Position numbers and translations under genes: made by a program. This document shows positions 1,728 through 3,278 of a stretch of 64,000 nucleotides of DNA, one piece after another; position 1 is the stretch's first letter, and every line of letters begins with the position of its first letter. This stretch comes from Eledone cirrhosa (lineage: Eukaryota). A model generated the notes under the pieces. It saw only the letters and a program-made list of their open reading frames with translations. It was not told the origin of the DNA and did not search any database. The stretch lies in assembly GCA_964016885.1 (NCBI GenBank), contig OZ024742.1, positions 13,640,001 to 13,704,000 on the forward strand. Direction: 5' to 3'.

Positions 1728-2155
1728 TGAATTCGTCTCTGGCGGAGATCACTTAAGAAAATCCTTTTCTTCCAAACGAGTTTGTTTCCTGATGAGTTCG
1801 AAGCTCGAGATTTTATCCTTAATAGGATATTTCCAAACGCGAACGAAACCCTAGGGTAGAAACGTAATCCTGGTATGTGTATATGCATTTCTTCTAATTT
1901 TAATTTTATACCAAATTGTGTATGGTTGACGGTATATTTAATCGATGTACACGTGGTGTTGAGATGTGGGGTAAACGTTCTATGGCGGTTGGCCGCGAAG
2001 TGATTGGTGTCGTTTATTTATCTACTATTTCTTCAAAGGTGCCTTTTAATCTCATAGCCTGGTCTAATTGATTTTTTTGTGTGGTTAATTATGCTAATTG
2101 GGAGAGGAAATGGTGTATATATATTATCAAATGATTCTATGGACATACTTTATAG
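1728..2155 (+). mobile_element. Short HHR-containing element (PLE pLTR-like / non-autonomous), copy A
   Basis: Bounded by microsatellites. 1845-2152 aligns by eye with 2966-3277 (shared GAAACCCTAG, AATCCTGGTATGT, ATAGCCTGGTCTAATTGATTTT, GGACATRCTTTA). Confidence 0.75.
1784..1863 (+). ncRNA. Type I hammerhead ribozyme
   Basis: GTTTC-CTGATGA-GTTCG-[39 nt incl. TATCCT/AGGATA hairpin]-CGAAC-GAAA-CCCTAGGG-TA-GAAAC. All three stems pair; GUA cleavage triplet at 1856-1858. Confidence 0.9.
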
Positions 2156-2204
2156 TATATATATATATATATATATATATATATATATATATATATATAT
2201 ATAT

Positions 2205-2437
2205 CAGGTCGCTCTCGAGTGCTACTGGTAACATGTAACCCAGTACAACCTGTCTCGTGGTCAGGTCGCCGGCGACTAAACTGACAACACCACCAAGCTT
2301 GCTTGGTGAGGAGGGTGATAATTGGACACCCTGCGGGATGAAATACAGGACCCGGCAAAGGGTGGAGGAACTCAGCAGAATCAACAGTCATCCAAATAGT
2401 ATTTTTTTTTTTATACGGAGAGGTTAAACTCTGAGGC
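2205..2437 (+). mobile_element. GC-rich, hairpin-rich interspersed repeat (resembles a LINE 5' leader or LINE-derived SINE), copy 1
   Basis: 2299-2437 is a near-identical reverse complement of 5911-6049. Hairpins TACTGG/CCAGTA, ACCTG/CAGGT and CACCAAGC-TT-GCTTGGTG. Family assignment is from recollection only. Confidence 0.6.
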
Positions 2438-2775
2438 ATAAAAAGCTTAGGGCTGTCGTTGTATTTTCCGTGGCAAACATTTTCACCGAAGATATGTGTC
2501 GTCAGTTCCAAAAACTGTGGTTGGTCCTACACAAGCCTTCACCACTTAAAACAAAACTTTGTGCGGGTAGTTCAACATCAGTTCACTTTCTCACATCAAC
2601 TTTTGTTGGACAATCATACGTCCGATATCGACGGGAGAGTCCATCATATATATATATATAAATATTTACACATACACCAATTAAACAAAGTCACAGGTAT
2701 ATATGTGTTTTGGCAACTTTTCACGATGTGGCTCAATGGAGAATTAATAAATTAATCAGAGCAAAATACTATAGA

Positions 2776-3278
2776 GTCAACCATACATAATTAGGTAAAA
2801 ATTAATGTTAGAAATGCTTATATACATACCAGGATTAAATCACAAAATCCCGACCCTAGGGTTTCGCTCACTTTTGAGATACCTTACTAAGGTTCATACT
2901 CGAGTTTAGAGCTCTTCAGGGGATAAACTCGAGTATGAACATTAATAAGGTATCTCAAAAGTGAGCGAAACCCTAGAGTCGGGATTCAATGATTTAATCC
3001 TGGTATGTATATAAGCATTTCTAACATTAATTTTTACCTAATTATGTATGGTTGACCGTATATTTAATTAATCTCCACGTGCTGTTAAAATGTTGGGTAA
3101 ATATTCTATAGCAGTTGCACGCGAAGACGCCACAATACTGTGTTTATTTACTATTTCTTCATAGATGCCTTTTATTCTTATAGCCTGGTCTAATTGATTT
3201 TTTGTGTGGTTAATTATGCTGATTGGGAGTAGAGATGTTGTATATATATTATCAAATAATTCTCTGGACATGCTTTAC
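2776..3278. mobile_element. HHR-containing element copy B with inverted duplication (arms 2776-2908 / 2924-3056, 15-nt spacer)
   Basis: About 133-bp near-perfect inverted repeat. The + arm continues to 3277 in homology with copy A and ends at (TC)n(TA)n. Confidence 0.85.
2847..2924 (-). ncRNA. Type I hammerhead ribozyme
   Basis: Minus strand reads ATCCC-CTGAAGA-GCTC-[insert incl. ACCTTA/TAAGGT hairpin]-GAGC-GAAA-CCCTAGGG-TC-GGGAT. Canonical GUC cleavage site, and stems covary with the 1784-1863 copy. Confidence 0.92.

What the first reader, a model, noticed from the sequence alone, without database searches (positions are those of the whole stretch)
1784..2924. Two subfamilies of one element show full covariation of an HHR with an unusually long stem II insert
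Copy A has stem I GTTTC/GAAAC, stem II GTTCG/CGAAC, inner hairpin TATCCT/AGGATA and site GUA. Copy B has ATCCC/GGGAT, GCTC/GAGC, ACCTTA/TAAGGT and site GUC. The core and CCCTAGGG stem III are retained. Compensatory changes in three helices indicate selection on RNA structure. The ~40-nt stem II extension (36 nt at 11599-11634 too) is longer than in minimal PLE HHRs and may supply tertiary contacts or a protein-binding site (inference).
Basis: partly seen in the sequence, partly recalled or inferred. Interest (0 to 1): 0.75.

Follow-up and report, generated by a model that had tools for sequence, protein, structure and literature searches.

The report
Pseudoknot-braced long-arm hammerhead retrozyme
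Two copies of a 680-base non-coding repeat, present thousands of times in this animal genome, carry a hammerhead (predicted self-cutting RNA) motif whose long side arm is conserved and is predicted to pair with the sequence just upstream, likely bracing a ribozyme type usually described without such a brace; cutting is untested.

Summary
The observation mostly holds. A (1784-1863, +) and B (2924-2847, -) are complete type I hammerhead motifs with a palindromic stem III. Stems I and II differ by 3-4 double changes against 11% background divergence. B's inner hairpin has 5 bp, not 6, and likely arose by a register shift. The 11599-11634 insert belongs to a separate 521-nt family.

A and B are subfamilies of a protein-free ~680-nt tandem monomer with over 2,500 matching copies. 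It inserts in (TA)n with two fixed 3' ends, a Penelope signature.

The long insert is retained: 2,536 long versus 25 sporadic short copies. A tail hairpin shared with Hydra-clade Penelope elements points to the likely mobiliser.

No evidence of cleavage or expression was obtained. The scan already noted pseudoknots, two-armed insertions and Hydra links in other families here and in other genomes. Verdict: new variant of known retrozyme hammerheads.

The parts
1728..2150 (+). Copy A: 5'-truncated piece of the ~680-nt monomer between (TA)n tracts, ending at fixed 3' site 1 (about +370 from core C3)
1778..1783 (+). A: 5' flank strand of the predicted pseudoknot (GAGTTT)
1784..1863 (+). A: type I hammerhead motif; core 1789-1795 and 1845-1848; predicted cut after A1858 (GUA)
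1801..1806 (+). A: 5' strand of the stem II internal loop (AAGCTC), predicted pseudoknot partner of 1778-1783
1807..1833 (+). A: bulged inner hairpin extending stem II; A-rich linker 1834-1839 follows
1848..1857 (+). A: palindromic stem III (3 bp as monomer, -1.3 kcal/mol; 10 bp as dimer, -18.0)
2653..2931 (-). Copy B, arm 1: hammerhead, an internal deletion of about 210 nt, then the tail ending at fixed site 2 (about +485) in (TA)n
2730..2763 (-). Tail hairpin (GCTC...GAGC with a 2-nt bulge) shared with Hydra-clade Penelope elements
2847..2924 (-). B: type I hammerhead motif; core 2919-2913 and 2865-2862; predicted cut after C2852 (GUC); pseudoknot strand AAACTC 2907-2902; inner hairpin 2901-2876
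2925..2931 (-). B: pseudoknot flank strand, which is also the 7-nt microhomology at the head-to-head junction of the two arms
2925..3280 (+). Copy B, arm 2: inverted arm that starts inside the insert (no 5' core half) and ends at fixed site 1
11562..11836 (+). Family C piece (521-nt unit): hammerhead 11580-11660 with a 50-nt stem II region, C-A first pair, pseudoknot flank 11571-11575; one pseudoknot base is changed in this copy
4933..6006 (-). 3' part of a Hydra-clade Penelope ORF (RT thumb and GIY-YIG); a separate element and a candidate for the kind of helper

Best explanation
A and B are subfamilies of a ~680-nt non-coding repeat that carries a type I hammerhead motif with a long stem II, whose internal loop is predicted to form a pseudoknot with the bases just 5' of stem I; this likely replaces the usual loop I-loop II contact and would let paired ribozymes cut tandem transcripts into units that are likely copied into (TA)n by Hydra-clade Penelope enzymes. 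Shown: intact core, covarying stems I and II, retained insert, position-specific complementarity of flank and insert with double changes, palindromic stem III, tandem units without ORF, two fixed 3' ends at (TA)n, and a shared tail hairpin. Inferred: that the pseudoknot forms and speeds cleavage; that cleavage needs a dimer; that units circularise; that the two fixed ends are the two reverse-transcription start sites known from a Penelope enzyme in vitro; that the helper is of the Hydra clade.
For: Insert kept: 2,536 matches with 39-66 nt versus 25 with 8-38 nt; the short ones look like scattered deletions, all different except one tandem pair. Pseudoknot: in 11 family representatives of 4 lineages, own flank with own insert strand averages -6.80 kcal/mol versus -3.79 for swapped pairs (6 of 200,000 permutations) and -3.76 for shuffled flanks (0 of 2,000). 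The signal peaks in windows ending 4-7 nt before the core and averages -1.75 further upstream. Within the alignable lineage, pair 4 is U-A 12, C-G 5, U-G 2 and mismatch 1 of 20; pair 5 includes A-U and G-C forms. In 82 distinct copies collected without imposing the motif, 68 pair 5 of 5 and 13 pair 4 of 5. Pair counts: 88% of 286 cells paired and 9 of 26 pairs with double changes. Tandem units at 680-683 nt; no long open frame in the A unit. 83 of 85 TA-flanked 3' ends fall at two sites; 12 of 14 two-armed insertions combine one end of each site, as expected from two start sites (PMC11167929). Tail hairpin: 200 hits versus 9 in reversed loci, in these repeats and in two Hydra-clade families, and by eye in published Hydra-2_Amil. 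An old Hydra-clade family has a 56-nt stem II behind its ORF (RT/EN matches upstream on the same strand in 13 of 20 loci). Pseudoknots between stems I and II are needed for fast cleavage in other hammerheads (PMC3088659).
Against: Nothing here shows cleavage. 5' ends within 3 nt of the cut site: A 1 of 52, B 1 of 60, C 0 of 31, near chance. The pseudoknot windows were chosen after seeing the pairing by eye. With one member per lineage the swap test is weak (rank 2 of 24 for four lineages; 8 of 5,040 for seven families), and the own partner ranked first in only 6 of 11 rows. The three outer pseudoknot pairs never vary in the A/B lineage and were imposed by the pattern, from which most representatives came. 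Pair 5 is broken in 5 of 20 and pair 6 in 11 of 20. The C-G form of pair 4 is a single event on the tree. The register was optimised over 5 offsets. On the unanchored MAFFT alignment the pseudoknot helix is only 73% paired. The Hydra family with the long stem II shows no pseudoknot (best duplex -1.6). No autonomous element alignable to A/B was found, and the tail hairpin was not tested properly against other Penelope clades. A Penelope hammerhead needed protein to cut and was dispensable for insertion in vitro.
Confidence: 0.68

Rival explanations
1. The hammerhead is real, but the conserved insert and flank pairing serve as a binding or folding site for the Penelope protein (a protein-assisted ribozyme or a packaging signal) rather than as a catalytic brace.
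For: The anole Penelope hammerhead cut only with its protein. The inner hairpin is conserved in fold but not sequence. A Hydra family keeps a long stem II without a pseudoknot.
Against: The pairing sits where stem I-stem II contacts sit in other hammerheads (insert strand 5-9 nt after A9, flank 0-3 nt from stem I). Its sequence differs between lineages, which suits a helix better than a sequence-specific site. A separate tail hairpin is the better candidate for enzyme recognition.
Confidence: 0.17
2. The flank-insert complementarity and hairpins are by-products of template switching and foldback during reverse transcription, not of selection on RNA.
For: The head-to-head junction of window copy B uses exactly this 7-nt complementarity. 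The inner hairpin changed by slippage.
Against: Only 1 of the 60 B 5' ends examined lies exactly at this junction, the window copy itself. The pairing is short, at a fixed distance from an invariant catalytic core, and passes through G-U forms. Stems I and II covary as well.
Confidence: 0.08
3. The motif is a catalytically dead relic of a Penelope terminal repeat; the repeat spreads through its tail alone.
For: No excess of 5' ends at the cut site. Minimal Penelope hammerheads are slow (PMC4209133). Ribozyme mutants did not affect insertion in vitro.
Against: Core columns are invariant across 20 subfamily representatives with 65% mean column identity, and stems are kept by double changes.
Confidence: 0.07

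Closest known systems
Metazoan non-LTR retrozymes (Cervera & de la Pena 2020, PMC7229834, passages; review PMC7761336, passages; Li et al. bioRxiv 10.64898/2026.07.22.740005, part 1 of 5)
   Same: Protein-free, AT-rich head-to-tail units, each with a type I hammerhead and a weak palindromic stem III; proposed to depend on Penelope elements.
   Different: Unit about 680 nt against about 150-350; stem II region 47-59 nt; no canonical loop I-loop II contact, but a predicted pseudoknot from an internal loop; circles not shown here.
Minimal hammerheads of Penelope pLTRs, including the Hydra clade (Cervera & de la Pena 2014, PMC4209133, parts 1-2 of 4; Craig et al. 2021, PMC8557442, passages and supplement parts 2 and 52)
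   Same: Short stem I, palindromic stem III, (TA)n targets, inverted 5'-truncated arms, family-level compensatory changes (already reported in 2014).
   Different: Listed Hydra motifs have loop II of 3-10 nt, and these motifs are described as lacking tertiary contacts. Only two spike-moss PLE-X motifs have 29-35-nt loops, marked non-canonical. No ORF here.
Pseudoknot-stabilised hammerheads (Perreault et al. 2011, PMC3088659, passages; includes human C10orf118)
   Same: A helix of 4 or more pairs links stems I and II and was needed for fast cleavage; reported for all three types.
   Different: Here the strand comes from an internal loop of stem II that is capped by a further hairpin, in a repeat-type motif with a dimer-style stem III. 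I did not see this layout in the passages read; figures were not available.
PK (RAGATH-1-type) hammerhead structure (Zhan et al. 2024, PMC11300833, passages)
   Same: A pseudoknot replaces other tertiary contacts; an A-rich strand makes A-minor triples.
   Different: There the pseudoknot replaces helix II; here a normal 4-7 bp helix II is kept.
Poseidon element of the green anole (Frangieh et al. 2024, PMC11167929, parts 1-2 of 4)
   Same: Two internal start sites downstream of the hammerhead bound a tail; both DNA strands are cut and extended; AT-rich targets.
   Different: Tail about 115 nt here against 30-40; the template is non-coding.

Membership tests
Type I hammerhead ribozyme | Core C3 U4 G5 A6 N7 G8 A9, G12 A13 A14 A15.1, U16.1, H17 | tested here: met
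   A and B; invariant columns in 20 representatives
Type I hammerhead ribozyme | Stems I, II and III around the core, stem I open | tested here: met
   stem III only 3 bp as monomer
Type I hammerhead ribozyme | Self-cleavage 3' of H17 | not testable with these tools
   No RNA run listed; 5' ends of genomic copies not enriched at the site
Metazoan non-LTR retrozyme | Tandem units each with a type I hammerhead, no ORF | tested here: met
   L017 and L085/L086 dimers at 680-683 nt; family C array of 9 listed units
Metazoan non-LTR retrozyme | Unit of about 150-400 nt with canonical loop I-loop II contacts | tested here: not met
   680 nt; stem I has no canonical extension, and a pseudoknot is predicted instead
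Metazoan non-LTR retrozyme | Expressed linear and circular unit RNA | not testable with these tools
Penelope minimal hammerhead | Palindromic stem III suited to dimers | tested here: met
   Perfect palindromes in 56 of the 76 copies covered by the 12 commonest forms, of three different sequences
Penelope minimal hammerhead | Short loop II and no tertiary contact | tested here: not met
   2,536 long versus 25 short; pseudoknot
Pseudoknot-stabilised hammerhead (Perreault 2011) | Four or more pairs between a stem II loop and the stem I flank, with covariation | tested here: met
   few independent events
Pseudoknot-stabilised hammerhead (Perreault 2011) | Rate depends on the pseudoknot | not testable with these tools
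   needs kinetics
PK / RAGATH-1 hammerhead | Helix II replaced by the pseudoknot helix | tested here: not met
   Normal helix II present; no Rfam hit
Non-autonomous partner of Penelope elements | Fixed internal 3' ends with a tail, variable 5' ends, inverted arms, (TA)n targets | tested here: met
Non-autonomous partner of Hydra-clade elements | Shares terminal signals with an autonomous Hydra element | tested here: inconclusive
   Tail hairpin shared and a long stem II in an old Hydra family; no alignable parent found; other clades not properly tested

The most novel reading that the evidence does not exclude
Penelope-dependent retrozymes of this genome have evolved an undescribed extended hammerhead: a dimer-forming core braced by a pseudoknot donated from a stem II internal loop, with the opposite loop strand adding a third strand (A-minor in the A/B lineage; U-rich, ENE-like triples in the C, E, F and K lineages). 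It would make them fast, protein-independent ribozymes, unlike their Penelope parents, and invisible to Rfam and to published descriptors.
Probability: 0.3. Interest if true: 0.68.

Novelty: new variant of a known kind. Interest (0 to 1): 0.47.

Why it matters
Penelope hammerheads are described as minimal, slow and without tertiary contacts, and their role is an open question. A lineage of 20 or more naturally varied subfamilies that keeps a specific brace argues that ribozyme folding is under selection, and supplies ready-made compensatory pairs for a direct test. The shared tail hairpin and paired fixed ends give a small non-coding template for testing how Penelope enzymes choose their start sites. 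Short-loop descriptors and Rfam miss these motifs, so animal retrozymes are probably undercounted.

Tried and rejected
Rfam at gathering score: no match. Pfam on the 4936-6006 ORF: no informative family; clade assigned by eye from published Hydra alignments.

Naiad origin: considered because Craig et al. list 'half cores' 35-50 nt apart. Dropped because I found no link to a Naiad ORF while Hydra links appeared; Naiad termini were not compared directly.

Apparent full-length homology of family K to A proved to be an adjacent G-type copy. Window copy B was replaced by L032 in the swap test because its flank is an inversion junction (versus 50). The G_L020 inner-hairpin row was cut at a wrong GAAA; one search gives the correct one.

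Families M, N, O, P, Q and S_L119 (9 of 24 representatives) and 4 further K and A2 relatives were left out of the swap test; the M majority shows no pseudoknot. Excess of 5' ends at the cut site: not found.

Sequencing runs: no RNA holder listed; contigs of three runs from one sample of unrecorded kind show the repeat and the 680-nt back-joint only. No covariance model or R-scape run was made. Lunse et al. 2017 could not be read, and bioRxiv supplements and all figures were unavailable; either could hold a similar fold. The organism was not determined.

Full report
Observation. A is a complete type I hammerhead at 1784-1863 (+, site GUA) and B one at 2924-2847 (-, site GUC). Each has 39 nt between the stem II strands and the palindrome ACCCTAGGGT as stem III. 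Three details need correcting. B's inner hairpin is 5 bp with a 3-nt loop. Its difference from A looks like a register shift, because intermediate copies exist. The third insert at 11599-11634 belongs to another, younger family with a 521-nt unit, 98% identical copies and an array of 9 listed units. Between A and B, three stem I pairs (two in copies with the outer G-U) and one stem II pair changed on both sides, against 31 substitutions in 273 downstream sites. Rfam misses all of them, and folding energy alone is unremarkable.

The element. The genome G000 has 3.0 Gb; the organism was not determined. First-look candidates numbered 3,172 for A and 995 for B, with 40 scored each. Tandem copies give a unit of 680-683 nt without a long open frame. 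5' ends vary. Of 85 TA-flanked 3' ends, 61 lie near +370 and 22 near +485 from the core. Of 14 two-armed insertions in 81 de-duplicated loci, 12 combine one end of each kind, 2 have two site-2 ends and none has two site-1 ends. Window 2653-3280 is such a two-armed insertion, joined through a 7-nt microhomology. This matches the Penelope pattern of two internal start sites bounding a tail, with both strands extended (PMC11167929).

Is the insert conserved? Yes. With the lineage's flank and core fixed, 2,536 matches have 39-66 nt between the core halves and 25 have 8-38 nt; the short ones are scattered deletions. Twenty subfamily representatives (47-59 nt inserts) share one plan: 4-5 bp of stem II, a 5-6 nt strand, a variable hairpin, an A-rich strand, then stem II again. 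Stem I is paired in 97 of 100 cells, with double changes at 4 of 5 pairs. Stem II pairs 2-4 are paired in 57 of 60 cells; its first pair is standard in only 13 of 20. The inner hairpin folds better than shuffles (z below -2) in 17 of 20, but does not covary pair by pair (46% in its top helix).

What the insert does. Its first unpaired strand is complementary to the bases just 5' of stem I: AACTC/GAGTT in B, AGCTC/GAGTT in A, TGCTC/GAGCA and CGCTC/GAGCG in G subfamilies. The same placement recurs in other long-stem families: TTCTC/GAGAA, CTTCTCA/TGAGAAG, TTTCCAT/ATGGAAA. For 11 representatives, own pairs average -6.80 kcal/mol, swapped pairs -3.79 (6 of 200,000 permutations) and shuffled flanks -3.76 (0 of 2,000), and the signal is confined to the window next to stem I.

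Limits of that test. The windows were set after seeing the pairing. One member per lineage gives rank 2 of 24, and seven families rank 8 of 5,040. In the A/B lineage three pairs never vary, pair 4 changed to C-G once, pair 5 holds in 15 of 20 and pair 6 in 9 of 20. The helix scores 91% paired on an 11-row alignment but 73% on the 20-row MAFFT alignment, where one group is shifted by a column. Such stem I-stem II pseudoknots are known to drive fast cleavage in other hammerheads (PMC3088659), so a brace is the simplest reading. Stem III is 3 bp alone but 10 bp as a dimer, so cleavage in tandem transcripts is inferred.

Who moves it. A hairpin closed by GCTC/GAGC or GTTC/GAAC with a 2-nt bulge begins just after fixed site 1 in A and B. 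A descriptor for it gave 200 hits in the loci held versus 9 in reversed loci. It hits A, B, G, C, D, E and K, the tail of the young Hydra-clade family whose ORF lies at window 4933-6006, and an old Hydra-clade family, besides some unassigned repeats. By eye it also ends published Hydra-2_Amil. The old family has RT/EN matches upstream in 13 of 20 loci and a 56-nt stem II, but no detectable pseudoknot. No autonomous element alignable to A/B was found, so Hydra is a likely helper, not a shown one.

Against function. No RNA data were available. Genomic 5' ends are not enriched at the cut site: 2 of 143 within 3 nt, about 1.5 expected. The one Penelope hammerhead tested with its protein needed that protein to cut and was dispensable for insertion.

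Comparison and novelty. It works like an animal retrozyme (PMC7229834; PMC7761336; bioRxiv 10.64898/2026.07.22.740005) with a Penelope-type palindromic stem III (PMC4209133), but with a larger unit and a different tertiary contact. Published Hydra motifs have 3-10 nt loops; two plant PLE-X motifs have 29-35 nt loops. It is not the PK hammerhead in which helix II is replaced (PMC11300833). Eight paper searches turned up no description of an internal-loop pseudoknot in retrozyme or Penelope hammerheads in the passages read. Lunse et al. 2017 and all figures were unavailable. PMC13725137 and PMC6765202 were seen as passages.

Earlier scan notes. I noted the pseudoknot before seeing scan notes that propose one for the C-A-type 530-555-nt families of this genome and for other genomes. 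The two-armed and Hydra leads came partly from notes and were tested here. These notes are not independent support.

Verdict. A real, selected RNA structure; a new variant of known retrozyme hammerheads, with a specific and cheap test. Interest 0.47.

Noticed in passing
window 1872-1878 (+) and equivalents in families A2, B, C, D, E, F, H, K: A 5' splice-site-like GTAWGT or GTAAAT lies about 10-22 nt after the predicted cut site in about half of the family representatives. Penelope introns next to the hammerhead are known.
   Followed up: partly
L129, L156, L030, L037, L092 (families K, F, E, C): Both strands of the stem II internal loop are U-rich and the flank strand is A/G-rich, resembling ENE triple helices (name recalled); in the A/B lineage the opposite strand is A-rich instead.
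   Followed up: partly
window about 3875-3915 (-); L146-L175: The young Hydra-clade family ends in a hammerhead-like motif with CAGAAGA (U4 to A), a 13-nt stem II region and no obvious adjacent stem I, in 19 of 30 loci. Long open frames up to 741 aa suggest recent activity.
   Followed up: partly
window 1382-1445 (-): Another type I hammerhead with a 27-nt stem II region and a TATATA palindromic stem III; several relatives occur in the loci.
   Followed up: no
window 672-839 (-) and 1122-1289 (+): Two inverted arms of a Penelope terminus with a short-stem II hammerhead half; it lacks the tail hairpin by my descriptor. Clade not determined.
   Followed up: partly
window 12140-33100: About 21 kb of low-complexity CACACTGAGA-type satellite, with what looks like a 7,852-nt higher-order repeat in the ORF list.
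   Followed up: no
window 33100-64000: A 65-bp tandem satellite, about 471 copies at 94-97% identity.
   Followed up: no
window 10422-10765: An imperfect 340-nt palindrome, 69% self-complementary; it contains a CTGATGA core half near 10583.
   Followed up: no
L119-L121, L125, L191, L194: Other repeated CTGANGA...GAAA motifs with different flanks that do not fit type I stems by my descriptor; possibly the permuted hammerheads noted earlier by the scan.
   Followed up: no
window 2299-2437 and 5911-6049: A 139-nt repeat, 96% identical, in opposite orientations; the second copy interrupts the Hydra element.
   Followed up: no
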